Shown one piece after another: positions 3,074 to 62,786 of a DNA stretch of 64,000 nt (positions within the stretch are counted from its first letter, which is position 1; each line of letters starts with the position of its first letter). The notes below the pieces were generated by a model. That model did no database searches and was not told the origin of the DNA. It worked only from the letters and a program-made list of their open reading frames with translations. Source of the stretch: Promethearchaeati archaeon SRVP18_Atabeyarchaeia-1 (GTDB taxonomy: Archaea > Asgardarchaeota > Atabeyarchaeia > Atabeyarchaeales > Atabeyarchaeaceae); NCBI GenBank assembly GCA_037308085.1, contig CP147779.1:192001-256000 (forward strand), in the 5' to 3' direction. Position numbers and translations under genes: made by a program.

Positions 3074-4069
3074 CTAGGGTTTTCCTGAGAGTCTATCTTT
3101 TCGGAAGTCGAAGACCTCTGCGGAGACTTTGCCGTCCGTGATAAGAAGCCGCCCAGAGTCATTCACTTTGCCAACCGCTCTTGCTTCAACTCCATGCCTG
3201 TGAAATACCGAGAGGCAACTATCCTTATTCTCAGCTCTCACCGTCAGCACGACGCCGAACCCGGGATATGCTTTCAGCCATCTGTCTGAATCGATCCCTT
3301 GCGGCATAGGTATTTCCCCTAGGTTGATCACGCCTCCTGCTTTGCTTGAATGCAGGAGCATGCCAAGGGTACCAACAACACCTGGATTGCTGATGTCCTT
3401 CGCAGACGTTGAAACTCCACTACTCGCGATCTCGCGGATGGCGCTGAGGCAATTTGCGACCTCCGTCTTAGACTTGTGACTGGTTGTGTCCCAAGCATAT
3501 TTGAACATGTTATGAAAATGACCGTCAAGGTCAATGGCTACAACAATAAGATCGCCTGGAGACGCAGCATCGCTTCTAAGCAGTGAATTCTTCTGTACAA
3601 TGCCCAGGATGGCGACGCTCAGGGCATCGAATGGCGCGTCGGGATTGAGGTGCCCACCTACTATTGGAACATTGAATTTCATGCAACCGCTTACTATACC
3701 TTCCACGATCTTATCTCGAACGGCAGGCGAAGCGCTAGCTATCGTGTCAACTATAGCGATTGGCTCTCCACCTTTAGCCGACACATCGTTGACGGCGGCC
3801 AGAATTGAGCAATAGCCTGCAAACTTGGGATCGGCTTTGACGAGATCGTGCCACATTTCCTCTGCTTTGAAGAGAATTAGCCTTCCTTCGTCTCCGATAT
3901 CAATCACCGCACAGTCTTCGCCAAATGACTCGATTATTCTGGCACCTGGAGGGGTTATAGAGAGTGCGGTCTCCCTCATTTTTCTGGTAATTTCAATAAT
4001 AGGCAGCTTCCTGGTTGCGCCAGCGAAGGCTCTAAGCGAAGCAGCAGTCGATTTCAGATCAACGCTCAC
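3074..4069 (-). CDS. PurM/AIR synthase-SelD superfamily protein (methanogenesis marker 2 / sll0787-like)
   Basis: FGEDCAVI, VNDVSAKGG, IVGGHLNPD and AKDISNPGVVGTLGMLL motifs. Confidence 0.8.
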   Translation of the reverse strand: MSVDLKSTAASLRAFAGATRKLPIIEITRKMRETALSITPPGARIIESFGEDCAVIDIGDEGRLILFKAEEMWHDLVKADPKFAGYCSILAAVNDVSAKGGEPIAIVDTIASASPAVRDKIVEGIVSGCMKFNVPIVGGHLNPDAPFDALSVAILGIVQKNSLLRSDAASPGDLIVVAIDLDGHFHNMFKYAWDTTSHKSKTEVANCLSAIREIASSGVSTSAKDISNPGVVGTLGMLLHSSKAGGVINLGEIPMPQGIDSDRWLKAYPGFGVVLTVRAENKDSCLSVFHRHGVEARAVGKVNDSGRLLITDGKVSAEVFDFRKDRLSGKP

Positions 4070-4285
4070 TATGATGGTTAGCCCCCAGGGGTCATTCAGC
4101 AGGTGACCGCGGAATTAAGTCCGTAATTCAAGCGCTTTCTTGAGCAAGTCCGATCATCTACTACAAAAAGTGAAATGGGTTTAAATAACTCGCTGCTAAG
4201 TCGCAAAAGCGATGAGAATATAGCTACGTGGAACACTTTAAGAAGTTTGTCGGTCTACTATCGAAAGCATTGCGATGGCCTCAGA

Positions 4286-4463
4286 GGCGCCCGATAGCGG
4301 GGGTGGAGGAATGCTGGTTTAACCAGGAATCAGCGCGCTACCCAATCCCACGCACCGGACTTCAAATCCGGTACACCAGAAAAACCTGTTTTGCGGGTTC
4401 TGATTGGTGTGGAGTTCGATGCTCCTCTAAGTGTAGGAGTGAAAATCTCCTCGGGCGCCGCCA
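4286..4463 (+). tRNA. selC: tRNA-Sec(UCA) with three BHB introns (4307-4345, 4383-4404, 4421-4445); mature length 92 nt
   Basis: 9-bp acceptor GGCGCCCGA/TCGGGCGCC plus G discriminator and encoded CCA; anticodon arm ACCGGA-CTTCAAA-TCCGGT; 4-bp T stem; each insert has BHB geometry; adjacent to SepSecS and SelB. Confidence 0.93.
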
Positions 4464-4467
4464 GATT

Positions 4468-5166
4468 TCAGCCTTGCACAACCGGTTCCGGAGGCGCAGG
4501 AGAAGCTTCGTCTATTGTTCTAGACAACCTTCGTTTCCAATCCAAGACCTTCATGCTTACTGACCGTGACTGGTCGGGATCCAATGGCGTTTCCTGTGAG
4601 TGGTCATACAAGCTCGCCATTACGTCGCCGGTCTCGATGTGTATCGGGTCGAATCCTTCTAGTGTCTTGATTAGGGTCTCCCTCACGATTCCGATGAACG
4701 GGTATATGTCGCCAACGGGGGCCTTCACCAGCAACTTACCCAAAGCTGCATCTAGCTTCATTTCCACTTCTATCGTCTTGATGACTTTCGTTCTATTCTT
4801 CTCATCGAATTTCCCGATTCGCCCCACAAGCTCCTTGTACCTTTTCTCATAGTTCGTGAGAGCATCTGAAGATTCTTCGGGGCTGTCTGAGCATACAGTT
4901 ATCTCCAGTTTTCCATCTGGTGCCAGAAGGAGTTTCACCGCCAGCTGGTGTCCAGAGGAAGACTTTGTGGACAACACTGCCTCTGCTGAGAAGGAAGATG
5001 ACTCGCCACCCATTGTCCCGATATTCTTGTAGCATCTTGCCTTTATCGTAGCGACAGAATGATAAACTAATGCAAAGGAAGATTGAGCATCGAGACCGTT
5101 GACTGGAAGACTCGCTTGCCTGCAATCAAGACCCTCAGCTATCTTGCTCCAGTCGGATGATTCCAT
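4468..5166 (-). CDS. Hypothetical protein (last gene of the selB-SepSecS run)
   Basis: 232-aa ORF co-oriented 46 bp downstream of SepSecS; no recognised motif. Confidence 0.7.
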   Translation of the reverse strand: MESSDWSKIAEGLDCRQASLPVNGLDAQSSFALVYHSVATIKARCYKNIGTMGGESSSFSAEAVLSTKSSSGHQLAVKLLLAPDGKLEITVCSDSPEESSDALTNYEKRYKELVGRIGKFDEKNRTKVIKTIEVEMKLDAALGKLLVKAPVGDIYPFIGIVRETLIKTLEGFDPIHIETGDVMASLYDHSQETPLDPDQSRSVSMKVLDWKRRLSRTIDEASPAPPEPVVQG

Positions 5167-5212: not shown

Positions 5213-6586
5213 TCATCGTTGCGGACGTGTATGATCCGGCTCTCGTTTCCCTGTCCTTTTTGCTATAGTTTGCTTCATCCCTTCCTTTAATTTTTCTACC
5301 GCATTGAATATGTCTGTCTCTGTCGACCCTATCGCAGCGTTCACTACGACATAGGAGTATGGATAATTGTCACAACAAGACCCTCGACTGCCTCGCGGAA
5401 TAACCCTTGGTCCACTGACTCTCAGGGAATACAGTATTCCTCCGAGAAGGGATGGATCGGCATTGGAGACTGTCATGGCGCACGCTATTGGGCTTTTGAC
5501 TTTCAGCATTCTCTCTCCACACGATTCCGCTGCTTCACCAAGCAGTGTTTCAAGAAGCTTTCTGTTTGACTCTTGGGCATCGCGAAGCCTCTCGTATCCG
5601 TCAATCCCGACAGATAGAATAGATGCTAGGAACTGATAGATCGGAGATGCGGATGCTCGACCTACATAGCTTGACGCTACTTTCTCGGCGAAGTCTTCAT
5701 CGGGAGAAGCGATTATTGCCCCGCCCACTGGTGTCAAGAAGTTCTTGTCGGTGCTTTGTACTACAGCATCTACTCTCCCAGCGTCTATTGCCAATCGGAT
5801 CTCTCGCATGGTTTCTCTGCTCTGCGCCCCATAAGCATTGTTTATGATGTGGGGAATATTCTGCTCCGAAGCAATCCGGGCAATATCGGCTATTGAATCA
5901 GTCTCCCTTGGAGGGAAAAAAGTCGTTGTCGAGAGTATGGCGGAGCAACGCTTGTCAATAGCTTCGGCTATATCGGTGACCGGCACGCGCACCGCGTCGT
6001 CATAGGTCTTCCCTTCAATAACTCTTGCCTTGAGATTGACCAAGTTCATGGCCTTCAAAGGGGAATCATGATCCACCCTTGCGAAAACTACTGTGTCACG
6101 TTCGCCACGAATTGAATCTCTAGTTGCTGCTAGGGCAAGTGCGATCGACATTCCTGTGGCTACGGGAGAAACGATCGCAGACTTCAGGTTGAACGCACCG
6201 AGTTTCTGCATGGCATCTAGCGCACATTTGTTGGCCAATCCATAAAGGACCGATGCCCCGGGGGCCTTTGGCTGGGGTGAAAGGAGTGACCCGCTTCTCC
6301 CAACTCCATGACAGAACCCCCATGCCAACTCAGAGACCAGGGGAGAAGCTACTCTTGCCTCACGCTCCCCAATTCTTATGCCATCGATATCCTTGTCAGT
6401 ATCCATCATTGAGAGAAGTCTCATCAAGAGACCGATTACGTGATCCGGCCATCCCGATTGCGGGATCCGCCTCTGCTTGAATAGGTTCCTTATCAGATTC
6501 AATTGAGAACTAAAGGCTACTTCGGAACGCCTCAACATCGCTTTGGGTAAGAAACCCTCAAGGTATTCCTCAAGCTTGTCACTCAA
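5213..6586 (-). CDS. spcS: O-phosphoseryl-tRNA(Sec) selenium transferase (SepSecS)
   Basis: MDTDKD...GEREAR, HGVGRSG, QPKAPG, PHIINNAYG and the PLP lysine in QSTDKNF. Confidence 0.95.
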   Translation of the reverse strand: MSDKLEEYLEGFLPKAMLRRSEVAFSSQLNLIRNLFKQRRIPQSGWPDHVIGLLMRLLSMMDTDKDIDGIRIGEREARVASPLVSELAWGFCHGVGRSGSLLSPQPKAPGASVLYGLANKCALDAMQKLGAFNLKSAIVSPVATGMSIALALAATRDSIRGERDTVVFARVDHDSPLKAMNLVNLKARVIEGKTYDDAVRVPVTDIAEAIDKRCSAILSTTTFFPPRETDSIADIARIASEQNIPHIINNAYGAQSRETMREIRLAIDAGRVDAVVQSTDKNFLTPVGGAIIASPDEDFAEKVASSYVGRASASPIYQFLASILSVGIDGYERLRDAQESNRKLLETLLGEAAESCGERMLKVKSPIACAMTVSNADPSLLGGILYSLRVSGPRVIPRGSRGSCCDNYPYSYVVVNAAIGSTETDIFNAVEKLKEGMKQTIAKRTGKREPDHTRPQR

Positions 6587-6674: not shown

Positions 6675-8060
6675 TCAAGGTATATTAAAATCCCGATACC
6701 TCCTAAGGAAGACCTTCTCGCCCAGTTGTGGAAGTCTTTCGAACTCGGCGACAACAAGACCTTTGCCCCCAAAAGCAGAAGATACAGTGCCATTGTCGCC
6801 GTTCTCTTTCGAGATGGTTTTACCAATGATCTTTTCCGCGCCTATCTTGCTCTTCGCCAACCCGCTGACGATCACGTTGGCCCTCGGGGTTATTCTGGTG
6901 ACCGCCCCCGACTTCTTCTCAAGCACTTTCAGTGGCGGGGGGTTGGTCAGAGTCTCTAGCACTGTGCCACCAGCGGCTATTCTAAGATTCGTGGGAGGAA
7001 GACTGAGTAATAGTAGAAGCATTTTGTCCCCTTTCTCCACTACGACGGACTTGGACAACCTGATATATGATGTGAAATCTCTCTCTTTAGGTGCTGATGC
7101 AACGACGAATTCCTGTTGTTCATTTGTCAGATAGGGAAAAACTTGGGATTGAATCGACGACATGCCTACCGCGGCATGCATTGACAGTCCTGGAGCAATC
7201 TCATGTTTGAAGAACTTGCTCACACACCCACCAAAAAGGAGGTGAAAGGTCGTCCTCAGTGATTTCGGTGAGGAGGCGTAGCATCCCCTGTAGATAGAAC
7301 GATGATCGACGCCTTGTAAGGCAATGCCTACGCGGTCTCCGGCCTCAGCCTTTTCCCTCGGCTCACTGAATGTCTGAATGGATTTGACACGACAGATTGC
7401 ACCTATGGGTGATATCTCCACATCGTCTCCGACTTTCACTTTTCCTCGCATAATCGTTCCTGTCACGACTGTGCCGGCGCCCTTTATTGGAAAAGAATGG
7501 TCTATCACCATCTTGAACTTTCCATCGACATCCCGTTCTGGAGGAGAAAGCAGTGAAAGAAGAGTTTTCTTTAGCTCGGGCAATCCCAATCCGGTAATGG
7601 ATGAGACCGCCACTACTGGTGCATCCGCGTAGCTTGAATCCGAGATGACCTTTCGAACTGATTCCTTGCTTTCGCTCAACTTGCTTTCTTCAACCAAATC
7701 GGCGTACGTGAGTGCAACTAATAGCTTACGTATCTTTAGGCTCTCAAGTAGCACTAGGTGCTCTCCAGTTTGGATTTGCGGTCCTTGCTTTGCAGAGACA
7801 ACCAAGATAGCTAGGTCAATTATGTTGGCACCGCTAACCGCCGTTCTTACCAGATCTGCATGTCCAGGAACATCAACAAGGGTCACTAGGTAGTCCCCTA
7901 GTGTGAACGCAGTGAAGCCGATATCAATAGTCATCTGCCTTCTTTTGGCTTCTGGGTGCCCGTCTAGCCCCGCAGTTGAAACCTTCTCGCTCAACGCGCG
8001 AGCGAGCTCAGTCTTCCCGTGATCCACATGACCGAACAGACCGACATGAACTGGGATCAT
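6675..8060 (-). CDS. selB: Selenocysteine-specific elongation factor (archaeal/eukaryotic-type SelB)
   Basis: GHVDHGKT, MTIDIGF, DVPGHADL, IDHSFPIKGAGTVVTGT, and a domain IV with FGGKG; located beside SepSecS. Confidence 0.93.
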   Translation of the reverse strand: MIPVHVGLFGHVDHGKTELARALSEKVSTAGLDGHPEAKRRQMTIDIGFTAFTLGDYLVTLVDVPGHADLVRTAVSGANIIDLAILVVSAKQGPQIQTGEHLVLLESLKIRKLLVALTYADLVEESKLSESKESVRKVISDSSYADAPVVAVSSITGLGLPELKKTLLSLLSPPERDVDGKFKMVIDHSFPIKGAGTVVTGTIMRGKVKVGDDVEISPIGAICRVKSIQTFSEPREKAEAGDRVGIALQGVDHRSIYRGCYASSPKSLRTTFHLLFGGCVSKFFKHEIAPGLSMHAAVGMSSIQSQVFPYLTNEQQEFVVASAPKERDFTSYIRLSKSVVVEKGDKMLLLLLSLPPTNLRIAAGGTVLETLTNPPPLKVLEKKSGAVTRITPRANVIVSGLAKSKIGAEKIIGKTISKENGDNGTVSSAFGGKGLVVAEFERLPQLGEKVFLRRYRDFNIP

Positions 8061-10591: not shown

Positions 10592-11221
10592 TCACATCTT
10601 CATCCATTCAAAGATCAAGTAGTTAACCTGACCCGACAGCGAGATCGTCGCGATAATGAACTTCTTTCTGACCGTCGTCGCAAGTCTTCCTGCCCTTACG
10701 GTTTCTATTGGGTTGATCGTTGAGCCCTTTGGCAAAGCATGCACTATGAAAGGCGCGTGGTCAATGCCCGGGCCACGCTGATAGACGCCGTAGTCGGCCC
10801 CAAACTTCAATCCAGGTCTAACAACATATCCTCTGTTCCTTAGATCCTTGTAGACGAGGTACTTGTCATCGAATCCATCATAGACTTTCTGCGCAAACTG
10901 TTGCAGTTCTTGGGCAGACATCTGATTCTTAGTCTTCGCATCAATCAGATTGATTCTCTTTTTCTCCAGTAAATAGAGAGCTTCCAACAAGGAGAGTTCG
11001 ACGGGGCATGTGAAGTCAAATGTCTTTGGCTTTCGAACCGATATAGGCTGACCATAGAAGCCTTCTTTATAGAGAGTTGACCCATCTTGTGGATCCCAAA
11101 CAATGACGTGCGTTTCGAAGAGCTCGGCTGTGATAGTCTTCTTGACCTCCGACTTCGAATTCGGCTCACCGATTTGTTTTTGCGCTTTGGCTTGTTCAGA
11201 GCTGTCACTGGGTTGTATCAT
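10592..11221 (-). CDS. endA: tRNA-splicing endonuclease (tRNA-intron lyase), catalytic subunit
   Basis: LSLLEALYL, VYKDLRNRGYVVRPGLKFGADYGVYQRGPGIDHAPF, GRLATTVRKK; the Tyr-His-Lys triad is intact. Confidence 0.96.
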   Translation of the reverse strand: MIQPSDSSEQAKAQKQIGEPNSKSEVKKTITAELFETHVIVWDPQDGSTLYKEGFYGQPISVRKPKTFDFTCPVELSLLEALYLLEKKRINLIDAKTKNQMSAQELQQFAQKVYDGFDDKYLVYKDLRNRGYVVRPGLKFGADYGVYQRGPGIDHAPFIVHALPKGSTINPIETVRAGRLATTVRKKFIIATISLSGQVNYLIFEWMKM

Positions 11222-39486: not shown

Positions 39487-39577
39487 GGGCCCGTGGCCTA
39501 GTCAGGATAGGGCGTCGGCCTCCGATCGATTGGGAGACAGCCGATGGTCGTGGGTTCAAATCCCTCCGGGCCCGCCA
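39487..39577 (+). tRNA. tRNA-Arg(CCG) with a 13-nt canonical intron (39526-39538)
   Basis: GGGCCCG/CGGGCCC-G-CCA; anticodon stem TCGGC/GCCGA; BHB central helix CTCC/GGAG; T-loop TTCAAAT. Confidence 0.95.
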
Positions 39578-43645: not shown

Positions 43646-43740
43646 GGGCCCGTGGCCTAGTCAGGATAGGGCGCCGGCCTTCGACCTTGTTCCTGGAAGA
43701 CAGCCGGGGGTCGTGGGTTCAAATCCCTCCGGGCCCGCCA
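43646..43740 (+). tRNA. tRNA-Arg(TCG) with a 17-nt canonical intron (43685-43701)
   Basis: Same body as tRNA-Arg(CCG); stem CCGGC/GCCGG; BHB helix CTTC/GAAG; encoded CCA. Confidence 0.95.
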
Positions 43741-62688: not shown

Positions 62689-62786
62689 GGGCCCGTGGCC
62701 TAGTCAGGATAGGGCGTCAGCCCTCTATGCAGCGGACAGGCAAGGAAAGCTGATGGTCGTGGGTTCAAATCCCACCGGGCCCGCCA
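62689..62786 (+). tRNA. tRNA-Arg(TCT) with a 20-nt intron (62728-62747) and atypical C33
   Basis: Arg tRNA body as in the other two copies; stem TCAGC/GCTGA; spliced loop CC-TCT-AA; encoded CCA. Confidence 0.85.

What the first reader, a model, noticed from the sequence alone, without database searches (positions are those of the whole stretch)
4286..4463. tRNA-Sec gene with three non-canonical introns, none in the anticodon loop
Seen: a 178-nt gene with a 9-bp acceptor stem, UCA anticodon and three inserts, each with BHB geometry. D-loop intron 4307-4345: GGGT/ACCC, bulges GG^A and AA^T. Variable-loop intron 4383-4404: CAGA/TCTG, bulges AA^A and AT^T, with a weak outer helix. T-loop intron 4421-4445: TTCG/TGAA, bulges AT^G and AA^T. 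Applying the cleavage rule independently gives the expected loops: D-loop TGGT, variable arm ACACCA-GAAA-TGGTGT, T-loop TTCGATT, and a 92-nt archaeal/eukaryotic 9/4 fold. From memory, a T-arm intron has been reported in Lokiarchaeia tRNA-Sec; three introns including one in the variable arm is exceptional. Inference: Sec decoding depends on triple splicing, and such genes would evade tRNA finders.
Basis: partly seen in the sequence, partly recalled or inferred. Interest (0 to 1): 0.9.

Follow-up and report, generated by a model that had tools for sequence, protein, structure and literature searches.

The report
Triple-intron selenocysteine tRNA gene, already catalogued
This is a genuine selenocysteine tRNA gene of the Asgard archaeon Atabeyarchaeia-1, broken by three introns that must all be cut out before it can work; the gene and its intron count were already listed in a 2024 supplementary table, but the intron positions were not described.

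Summary
Window 4286-4463(+) has a perfect 9-bp acceptor stem, a UCA anticodon and three inserts (4307-4345, 4383-4404, 4421-4445). Each insert is bounded by a 4-bp helix flanked by two 3-nt bulges (BHB). Removing them gives a 92-nt RNA that folds by plain MFE into a 9/4 tRNA-Sec cloverleaf. ARAGORN calls the spliced product tRNA-SeC. It scores best, at exactly these junctions, against a profile of 28 intron-free Asgard tRNA-Sec genes.

The gene lies inside the Sec gene cluster (SepSecS, aSelB, a PSTK-like gene, and EndA 6 kb away). The genome's SelD has TGA at the catalytic position. Five orthologues keep the same three insert positions, with near-invariant exons and drifting intron interiors.

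It is not new. The genome is the published Atabeyarchaeia-1 (2,808,651 bp), and Supplementary Data 4 of Valentin-Alvarado et al. 2024 lists "196286-196460 SeC UCA, 3 introns, identified via Secmarker".

- exact intron positions and BHB classes;
- the finding that Freya-lineage selC shares the D-loop and T-loop positions, giving two introns where one is published;
- the finding that Loki-type selC genes carry either the T-loop intron or a canonical 37/38 intron.

The parts
4286..4463 (+). tRNA-Sec (selC) gene, 178 nt including discriminator G (4460) and encoded CCA (4461-4463)
   Evidence: same as tRNA #40 (196286-196460) in Supp. Data 4 of PMC11291895
4286..4306 (+). exon 1: acceptor 5' strand (9 nt), TA linker, D-stem 5' strand, first 3 nt of the D-loop
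4307..4345 (+). intron 1 (39 nt), D-loop; BHB with central helix GGGT/ACCC, 2-bp outer and 2-bp inner helices
   Evidence: the inner helix covaries and is 6-7 bp in most orthologues
4346..4382 (+). exon 2: last D-loop nt, D-stem 3' strand, anticodon arm (anticodon TCA at 4362-4364), variable-arm 5' strand and GAAA loop
4383..4404 (+). intron 2 (22 nt), between the variable-arm loop and the 3' strand; central helix CAGA/TCTG, 6-bp inner helix, 1-bp outer helix (relaxed HBh' type)
   Evidence: the ends are invariant and the interior drifts in sequence, length (22-24 nt) and pairing across six orthologues
4405..4420 (+). exon 3: variable-arm 3' strand, T-stem 5' strand, T-loop TTCGAT
4421..4445 (+). 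intron 3 (25 nt), T-loop (equivalent to position 59/60); strict hBHBh' with TTCG/TGAA, 4-bp outer helix (the T-stem) and 5-bp inner helix
   Evidence: same position in Freya-lineage and Loki-type (G134) selC
4446..4463 (+). exon 4: last T-loop nt, T-stem 3' strand, acceptor 3' strand, G73, CCA
5213..6586 (-). SepSecS (context)
   Evidence: Pfam PF05889, 382 bits
6675..8060 (-). archaeal SelB (context)
   Evidence: GTP_EFTU, GTP_EFTU_D2 and aSelB_III domains; TIGR00475, 289 bits
10592..11221 (-). tRNA splicing endonuclease EndA, paralogue 1 (context; the enzyme inferred to cut the six sites)
   Evidence: PF02778 plus PF01974; best solved relatives are chains 3p1z_B and 3ajv_B

Best explanation
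Window 4286-4463 is the single selenocysteine tRNA gene of Ca. Atabeyarchaeum deiterrae (Atabeyarchaeia-1). It is transcribed as a precursor of about 178 nt made of four exons. Three introns, in the D-loop, the variable-arm loop and the T-loop, each present a bulge-helix-bulge motif. The inference is that the splicing endonuclease EndA, which has two paralogues here and is probably an (alpha-beta)2 enzyme of broad specificity, cuts inside each 3-nt bulge, and that RtcB joins the exons. The product is a 92-nt 9/4 tRNA-Sec with a 7-bp D-stem, a UCA anticodon, G73 and a gene-encoded CCA. That tRNA would then be serylated, phosphorylated by PSTK, converted by SepSecS and delivered by aSelB to in-frame UGA codons.

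Shown here: gene anatomy, BHB geometry, exact junctions, conservation across orthologues, and the presence of all the machinery. Inferred: that all three inserts are removed in vivo, and by which enzymes.
For: Anatomy and fold:
- The sequence is as described.
- The spliced 92-mer folds by MFE into the 9/4 cloverleaf, and ARAGORN calls it tRNA-SeC.

Junction test against a profile of 28 unique intron-free Asgard tRNA-Sec genes:
- The spliced product scores 46.8 bits end to end.
- Shifting all junctions by +/-1-3 nt lowers this stepwise to 39-27 bits.
- Leaving any one insert in gives 37.7, 37.6 or 32.8 bits.
- The unspliced gene scores 13.0 bits; shuffles and the genome's other long-arm tRNAs do not hit.

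BHB motifs: all three inserts have 4/4 central pairs and two 3-nt bulges. Chance at fixed sites is 4e-4 or lower.

Orthologues: five of them (G001, G002 = Atabeya-2, and three wetland metagenome contigs) keep inserts at identical positions. Exons are nearly invariant, intron interiors diverge, and the central and inner helices show wobble or compensatory changes (ACCC/GCCC/GCCT; TGAA/CGAG/CGAA).

Genome context:
- No other locus in the genome reaches the Rfam tRNA-Sec cut-off.
- Machinery is present: SepSecS 382 bits, aSelB 289 bits, PSTK-like 147 bits and SelD 250 bits, with SepSecS, aSelB and the PSTK-like gene within about 5 kb of the tRNA.
- SelD has TGA at the G-U-S-C-K catalytic site.
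- There are two EndA paralogues and RtcB.

Published record: Secmarker 46.6 bits and 3 introns by R2DT (PMC11291895, Supp. Data 4).
Against: - No RNA evidence exists.
- The variable-arm BHB has only a 1-bp outer helix, and its central helix shows no covariation because both strands are invariant.
- The D-loop BHB of this genome has only 2+2 flanking pairs.
- The all-BHB precursor conformer is 18 kcal/mol above the MFE (-64.9 against -83.2). Even the textbook T-loop BHB is absent from the MFE, so this test does not discriminate.
- The D-stem has a G.A mismatch.
- The PSTK-like hit covers only positions 1-191 of 249 and is below the curated cut-off.
Confidence: 0.9

Rival explanations
1. Only the T-loop insert, and perhaps the D-loop insert, is spliced. 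The 22-nt variable-arm insert is retained, giving a mature tRNA-Sec with an unusually long 38-nt variable arm.
For: - The MFE of the precursor stacks the insert on the variable stem as one long imperfect hairpin.
- The outer BHB helix is 1 bp, and the central helix shows no covariation.
- tRNA-Sec variable arms are naturally long.
Against: - The insert ends that form the 4-bp helix and both 3-nt bulges are invariant in six orthologues, while the interior changes in sequence, length and pairing (inner helix 6, 2, 3, 3, 3 and 2 bp). That is the reverse of what a functional arm extension would show.
- Retaining it lowers the profile score from 46.8 to 37.7 bits.
- Intron-free Asgard tRNA-Sec genes have 14-17 nt variable arms, like the spliced form.
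- Chance of the observed BHB geometry is 2.8e-5.
Confidence: 0.06
2. The locus is a decaying selC pseudogene, disabled by insertions, and Sec is no longer decoded.
For: - tRNAscan-SE, ARAGORN and Rfam all fail on it.
- The PSTK-like gene looks truncated.
- The D-stem has a G.A mismatch.
Against: - Exons are nearly invariant across six genomes or contigs at about 75-79% overall identity, and every stem is intact.
- Inserts sit precisely at BHB motifs.
- SelD keeps an in-frame TGA at the catalytic site.
- The paper reports further selenoproteins with SECIS elements.
- SepSecS and aSelB are intact.
- 92-95% of this organism's tRNA genes carry introns, so interruption is the norm here.
Confidence: 0.02
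3. Chance resemblance: the cloverleaf was obtained by choosing deletions freely.
For: Three freely chosen deletions give many degrees of freedom.
Against: - The junctions fixed by the BHB rule are also the ones that maximise similarity to an independent profile of intron-free genes.
- The same architecture recurs in five orthologues and, for two of the positions, in another class.
- The locus lies in the Sec gene cluster.
Confidence: 0.01

Closest known systems
This gene itself as catalogued by Valentin-Alvarado et al. 2024 (Nat Commun, PMC11291895, Supplementary Data 4: tRNA #40, 196286-196460, SeC UCA, Infernal 46.6, 0 introns by tRNAscan-SE, 3 by R2DT, 'identified via Secmarker')
   Same: Same genome: the length is exactly 2,808,651 bp, and the coordinates of three other tRNAs in the window match at an offset of 192,000. 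Same gene, same intron count.
   Different: The paper gives no intron coordinates, positions or BHB analysis and does not discuss the gene in its text. Its end coordinate omits the encoded CCA.
Lokiarchaeota tRNA-Sec with a single 31-nt T-arm intron (Mariotti et al. 2016; Santesmasses et al. 2017, as summarised in PMC9499178)
   Same: An archaeal 9/4 tRNA-Sec with a 7-bp D-stem and a BHB intron in the T-loop. In the Loki-type genome G134 the insert sits at exactly the same place (TTCGAT|...|T).
   Different: It has one intron against three here. The 2022 review called the Loki gene the only archaeal tRNA-Sec with an intron, which is no longer true.
Freyarchaeia/Jordiarchaeia tRNA-Sec (G037 = the published 3,576,204-bp Freya genome; also G063 and G046)
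   Same: D-loop and T-loop inserts at positions identical to those here, with 4/4 central BHB pairs.
   Different: It has no variable-arm intron. The paper lists it as 122 nt with 1 intron. My reading is 810387-810536(-) with 2 introns, which gives a perfect 9-bp acceptor followed by GCCA.
Multi-intron tRNA genes of Thermoproteales (Sugahara et al. 2008, cited in PMC11291895) and of Asgard generally (bioRxiv 10.64898/2026.10.13.758758)
   Same: Up to three or more BHB introns per tRNA gene at non-canonical positions, processed by two-subunit EndA enzymes of broad specificity.
   Different: Those lineages' multi-intron genes are ordinary elongator tRNAs. Thermoproteales have no Sec system (from my own knowledge).

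Membership tests
tRNA-Sec, archaeal/eukaryal 9/4 type | 9-bp acceptor stem plus 4-bp T-stem | tested here: met
   GGCGCCCGA/TCGGGCGCC and GGAG/CTCC
tRNA-Sec, archaeal/eukaryal 9/4 type | UCA anticodon in a 7-nt loop on a 6-bp stem | tested here: met
   ACCGGA-CTTCAAA-TCCGGT, which Rfam RF01852 aligns even in the unspliced gene
tRNA-Sec, archaeal/eukaryal 9/4 type | Long D-stem (7 bp in archaea) with a 4-nt D-loop, a long variable arm, and G73 | tested here: met
   After splicing: GCGGGGG-TGGT-CCCACGC (one G.A), a 6-bp variable stem with loop GAAA, and discriminator G. This matches intron-free Asgard genes.
tRNA-Sec, archaeal/eukaryal 9/4 type | Reaches the Rfam RF01852 gathering score (47 bits) | tested here: not met
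   The genomic (unspliced) sequence scores 21.3 bits. Substitutes: ARAGORN calls the spliced form tRNA-SeC; 46.8 bits against a sequence profile of intron-free Asgard tRNA-Sec; published Secmarker score 46.6.
tRNA-Sec, archaeal/eukaryal 9/4 type | Genome encodes PSTK, SepSecS, SelB and SelD, and has UGA-containing selenoprotein genes | tested here: met
   The PSTK-like hit is partial (147 bits, positions 1-191 of 249).
tRNA-Sec, archaeal/eukaryal 9/4 type | Serylation, phosphorylation and conversion to Sec-tRNA | not testable with these tools
   Biochemical. G2:C71 and C3:G70, recalled as archaeal PSTK identity pairs, are present in the sequence.
Archaeal BHB tRNA introns | 4-bp central helix flanked by two 3-nt bulges on opposite strands | tested here: met
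   All three inserts have 4/4 pairs, in all six orthologues.
Archaeal BHB tRNA introns | At least one flanking helix (h or h') | tested here: met
   T: 4 + 5 bp (strict hBHBh'). D: 2 + 2 bp here and 6-7 bp inner helix in relatives. V: 1 + 6 bp here but only 2-3 conserved inner pairs (relaxed HBh').
Archaeal BHB tRNA introns | Splicing endonuclease and RtcB ligase encoded | tested here: met
   Two EndA paralogues and RtcB at 583 bits.
Archaeal BHB tRNA introns | Removal from the RNA in vivo (spliced junctions observed) | not tested
The literature states that no such evidence exists yet.

The most novel reading that the evidence does not exclude
selC records intron history across Asgard archaea. 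Four distinct intron sites occur: 37/38 in one Loki-type genus, the T-loop in another Loki-type genus plus Freya plus Atabeya, the D-loop in Freya plus Atabeya, and the variable arm in Atabeya only. The T-loop intron, and perhaps the D-loop intron, at identical nucleotides in non-sister classes may be ancient introns inherited from a deep Asgard ancestor and not repeated gains. In Atabeyarchaeia the whole selenoproteome would then hang on three EndA-dependent splicing events in one single-copy gene that lies 6 kb from endA.
Probability: 0.25. Interest if true: 0.5.

Novelty: already known. Interest (0 to 1): 0.33.

Why it matters
This is a single-copy, essential-for-Sec tRNA that needs six precise cuts and three ligations, so it is a stringent natural substrate for the Asgard splicing machinery. 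It is also a clear case of a functional gene that is invisible to tRNAscan-SE, ARAGORN and Rfam. Surveys that score Sec usage by tRNA-Sec detection will under-call intron-rich Asgard lineages: the Rfam model found 0 of 2 other Atabeya genomes and 0 of 6 Freya-family genomes. The intron-position map across lineages, and the corrected two-intron reading of the Freya gene, are small but usable additions to the published record.

Tried and rejected
I used ARAGORN and an nhmmer profile of intron-free relatives instead.
- Thermodynamics as a test of BHB formation does not discriminate. The all-BHB conformer is 18 kcal/mol above the MFE, and even the strict T-loop BHB is not in the MFE.
- The phylum-wide 13-mer anticodon-arm pattern gave many hits. 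Of 40 fetched hits outside the main Loki and Thor-like families, most were coding sequence or T-arms of ordinary tRNAs. Only Freya relatives (2 introns) and intron-free genes were added, and no further selC with three or more introns turned up. This sample is not exhaustive.
- A stem-enclosed anticodon-arm-like element in G005 and G151 (L086, L088) was considered as an aberrant selC. I rejected it because it has no D- or T-arm and the flanking 'acceptor' does not covary.
- Sequence homology between the Atabeya and Freya T-loop introns rests only on a shared CTCCTC hexamer, which is not significant. Common descent versus repeated gain at the same site therefore stays open. The preprint reports that the two classes are not sisters.

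Full report
**What is there.**
- The 9-nt 5' end GGCGCCCGA is perfectly complementary to TCGGGCGCC at 4451-4459, followed by G and CCA.
- Between them lie a 6-bp anticodon arm with loop CTTCAAA (anticodon at 4362-4364) and three inserts at 4307-4345 (39 nt), 4383-4404 (22 nt) and 4421-4445 (25 nt).
- Joining the four exons gives a 92-mer whose unconstrained minimum-free-energy fold is a 9/4 cloverleaf. It has a 7-bp D-stem (one G.A), D-loop TGGT, a 6-bp variable stem with GAAA loop, and T-arm GGAG-TTCGATT-CTCC.
- ARAGORN calls this product tRNA-SeC(tca) and finds nothing in the unspliced gene.
- Rfam's tRNA-Sec model aligns only the anticodon and variable arms of the genomic sequence, at 21.3 bits against a 47-bit cut-off. 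Nothing at this locus reaches any Rfam gathering score.

**Are the junctions right?** Two independent criteria agree.
- BHB rule: a 4-bp helix between two 3-nt bulges, with the cut after the second bulge nucleotide. It is met 4/4 at all three inserts.
  - The T-loop insert is a strict hBHBh' motif (outer helix 4 bp, which is the T-stem, and inner helix 5 bp).
  - The D-loop insert has 2 + 2 flanking pairs.
  - The variable-arm insert has 1 + 6.
  - At randomly chosen site pairs in this window, such geometries occur at 3.7e-4, 2.8e-5 and below 2.5e-6.
- Profile test: I built a sequence profile from 28 unique intron-free Asgard tRNA-Sec genes (found with Rfam, extracted) and scored variants.

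| Variant | Score (bits) |
|---|---|
| Exact junctions, end to end | 46.8 |
| All junctions shifted by +/-1, 2, 3 nt | 39-37, 34-33, 31-27 |
| One insert left in | 37.7, 37.6 or 32.8 |
| Unspliced gene | 13.0 |
| Shuffles and the genome's other long-arm tRNAs | no hit |

- The splice junctions also recreate the D-loop (TGGT), the T-loop (TTCGATT) and the encoded GCCA end seen in the intron-free genes.
- Folding energy was not informative. The all-BHB conformer is 18 kcal/mol above the MFE, but even the textbook T-loop BHB is absent from the MFE.

**Context.** The window is G000:C1:192001-256000 of a 2,808,651-bp single-contig genome.
- SepSecS (5213-6586, 382 bits) and archaeal SelB (6675-8060) lie just downstream on the other strand.
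- A PSTK-like kinase lies just left of the window (147 bits, N-terminal 191 of 249 positions).
- An AIR-synthase-fold paralogue is divergent from the tRNA.
- An EndA gene is at 10592-11221.
- SelD elsewhere in the genome has TGA at the catalytic G-U-S-C-K position.
- No other locus reaches the tRNA-Sec cut-off; the best scores 30.8 bits.
- The splicing toolkit is present: two EndA paralogues, each with N-terminal and catalytic domains. The first is closest to the 180-186-aa chains of 3p1z, 3ajv, 2cv8 and 2zyz, which I recall as the catalytic subunits of two-subunit crenarchaeal enzymes of broad specificity. The second is more divergent. RtcB is also present.

**Relatives.**
- G001 (same genus), G002 (same family) and three wetland metagenome contigs carry the same gene with inserts at the same three positions.
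- Exons are almost invariant.
- Intron interiors diverge, while the BHB-forming nucleotides are kept or change compatibly (ACCC/GCCC/GCCT for D; TGAA/CGAG for T).
- The D-intron inner helix covaries and is 6-7 bp in most relatives.
- The variable-arm insert keeps only its ends invariant, while its interior changes in sequence, length (22-24 nt) and pairing. That argues for an intron and against a retained arm extension.

**Across the phylum.**
- The Rfam model found tRNA-Sec above cut-off in 38 of 151 sampled Asgard genomes. Almost all of these are 87-89 nt and intron-free.
- G134 (Loki-type) has one insert at the same T-loop position.
- G146 has a canonical 37/38 anticodon-loop intron.
- The Freya lineage (G037, G063, G046) has two inserts, at the same D-loop and T-loop positions as here.
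- A pattern survey of 400 genomes, followed by inspection of 40 extra loci, found no other selC with three introns. This sample is not exhaustive.

**Prior art.** The genome length and the coordinates of three other tRNAs identify the genome as Atabeyarchaeia-1 of Valentin-Alvarado et al. 2024 (PMC11291895).
- Their Supplementary Data 4 lists tRNA #40, 196286-196460, SeC UCA, Infernal 46.6, with 0 introns by tRNAscan-SE and 3 by R2DT, 'identified via Secmarker'. It lists the same for Atabeya-2, and one intron for Freya.
- The paper reports that 92-95% of tRNA genes in these genomes have introns and that more than half have several.
- No intron coordinates or positions for selC are given, and the text does not discuss them.
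- A 2022 review still called the Loki gene the only archaeal intron-containing tRNA-Sec and stated that CCA is not encoded in archaeal tRNA-Sec. Neither statement holds for the Asgard genes examined here.
- An October 2026 preprint on Asgard tRNA introns mentions Sec tRNAs only in its methods. It notes that the Freya and Atabeya classes are not sisters, reports two EndA paralogues in most genomes, and stresses that no splicing has been shown experimentally.

**Verdict.** The observation and the interpretation are both correct, and the gene is real and almost certainly functional. Its existence and its three-intron count are already published for this very genome, so I rate the novelty as 'already known'.

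The main open point is experimental proof of splicing, especially for the relaxed variable-arm motif.

Noticed in passing
L078 minus strand 201-353 (G037:C1:810387-810536, minus strand, plus CCA): The Freyarchaeia selC gene reads as a perfect 9/4 tRNA-Sec (GGCGGACTG/CAGTCCGCC, then G and CCA) only if two inserts are removed: a 28-nt D-loop insert and a 32-nt T-loop insert. The published table gives 810415-810536 with one intron, so its 3' end looks truncated. G063 and G046 share the two-insert form.
   Followed up: partly
L080 (G146:C2:189906-190018, minus strand): A Loki-type selC with a canonical 37/38 anticodon-loop intron (CTTCAA|24 nt|A). This is a fourth intron site for archaeal tRNA-Sec.
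   Followed up: partly
L048-L077, L079, L078, window 4460-4463: Nearly all of the roughly 35 Asgard tRNA-Sec genes examined encode the 3' GCCA end. One exception was seen (L108, G218, tail GTTT). This is contrary to the generalisation in a 2022 review that archaeal tRNA-Sec genes do not encode CCA.
   Followed up: partly
genome 191099-191686 (-), about 300-900 nt left of the window start: The PSTK-like hit covers only model positions 1-191 of 249 (147 bits, below the curated cut-off). The paper's KEGG table scores PSTK as absent in Atabeya-1 but present in Atabeya-2 and Freya. Earlier scan notes suggest a -1 frameshift separating the tRNA-binding C-terminal domain. I did not examine this.
   Followed up: no
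window 4468-5166 (-): A 232-aa ORF with no Pfam match, co-oriented with SepSecS and SelB, ends 4 nt from the tRNA's CCA (convergent). It is a candidate Sec-related accessory gene of unknown function.
   Followed up: no
window 3074-4069 (-): An AIRS/AIRS_C (PurM-fold) protein divergent from selC, with a weak SelD-model hit (46 bits). It is a paralogue and not the canonical SelD, which lies at genome 940244-941125 with Sec at the active site.
   Followed up: partly
window 39487-39577, 43646-43740, 62689-62786 (+): Three further intron-containing tRNA genes. ARAGORN, run without intron modelling, labels them Gly(tcc), undetermined and Arg(tct). The published tRNAscan-SE table lists them as Arg CCG, Arg TCG and Arg TCT, each with one anticodon-loop intron, so the first two ARAGORN labels are unreliable (the third agrees).
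   Followed up: partly
window 10592-11221 (-): One of the two EndA paralogues lies only about 6 kb from the triple-intron selC gene, at the edge of the Sec cluster. Atabeya-2 has the same gene order according to the paper's annotation table (genes 212-218).
   Followed up: no
window 4228-4563 (+) and 4391-4852 (+): ORFs of 111 and 153 aa overlap the tRNA gene on its own strand. They are almost certainly spurious.
   Followed up: no
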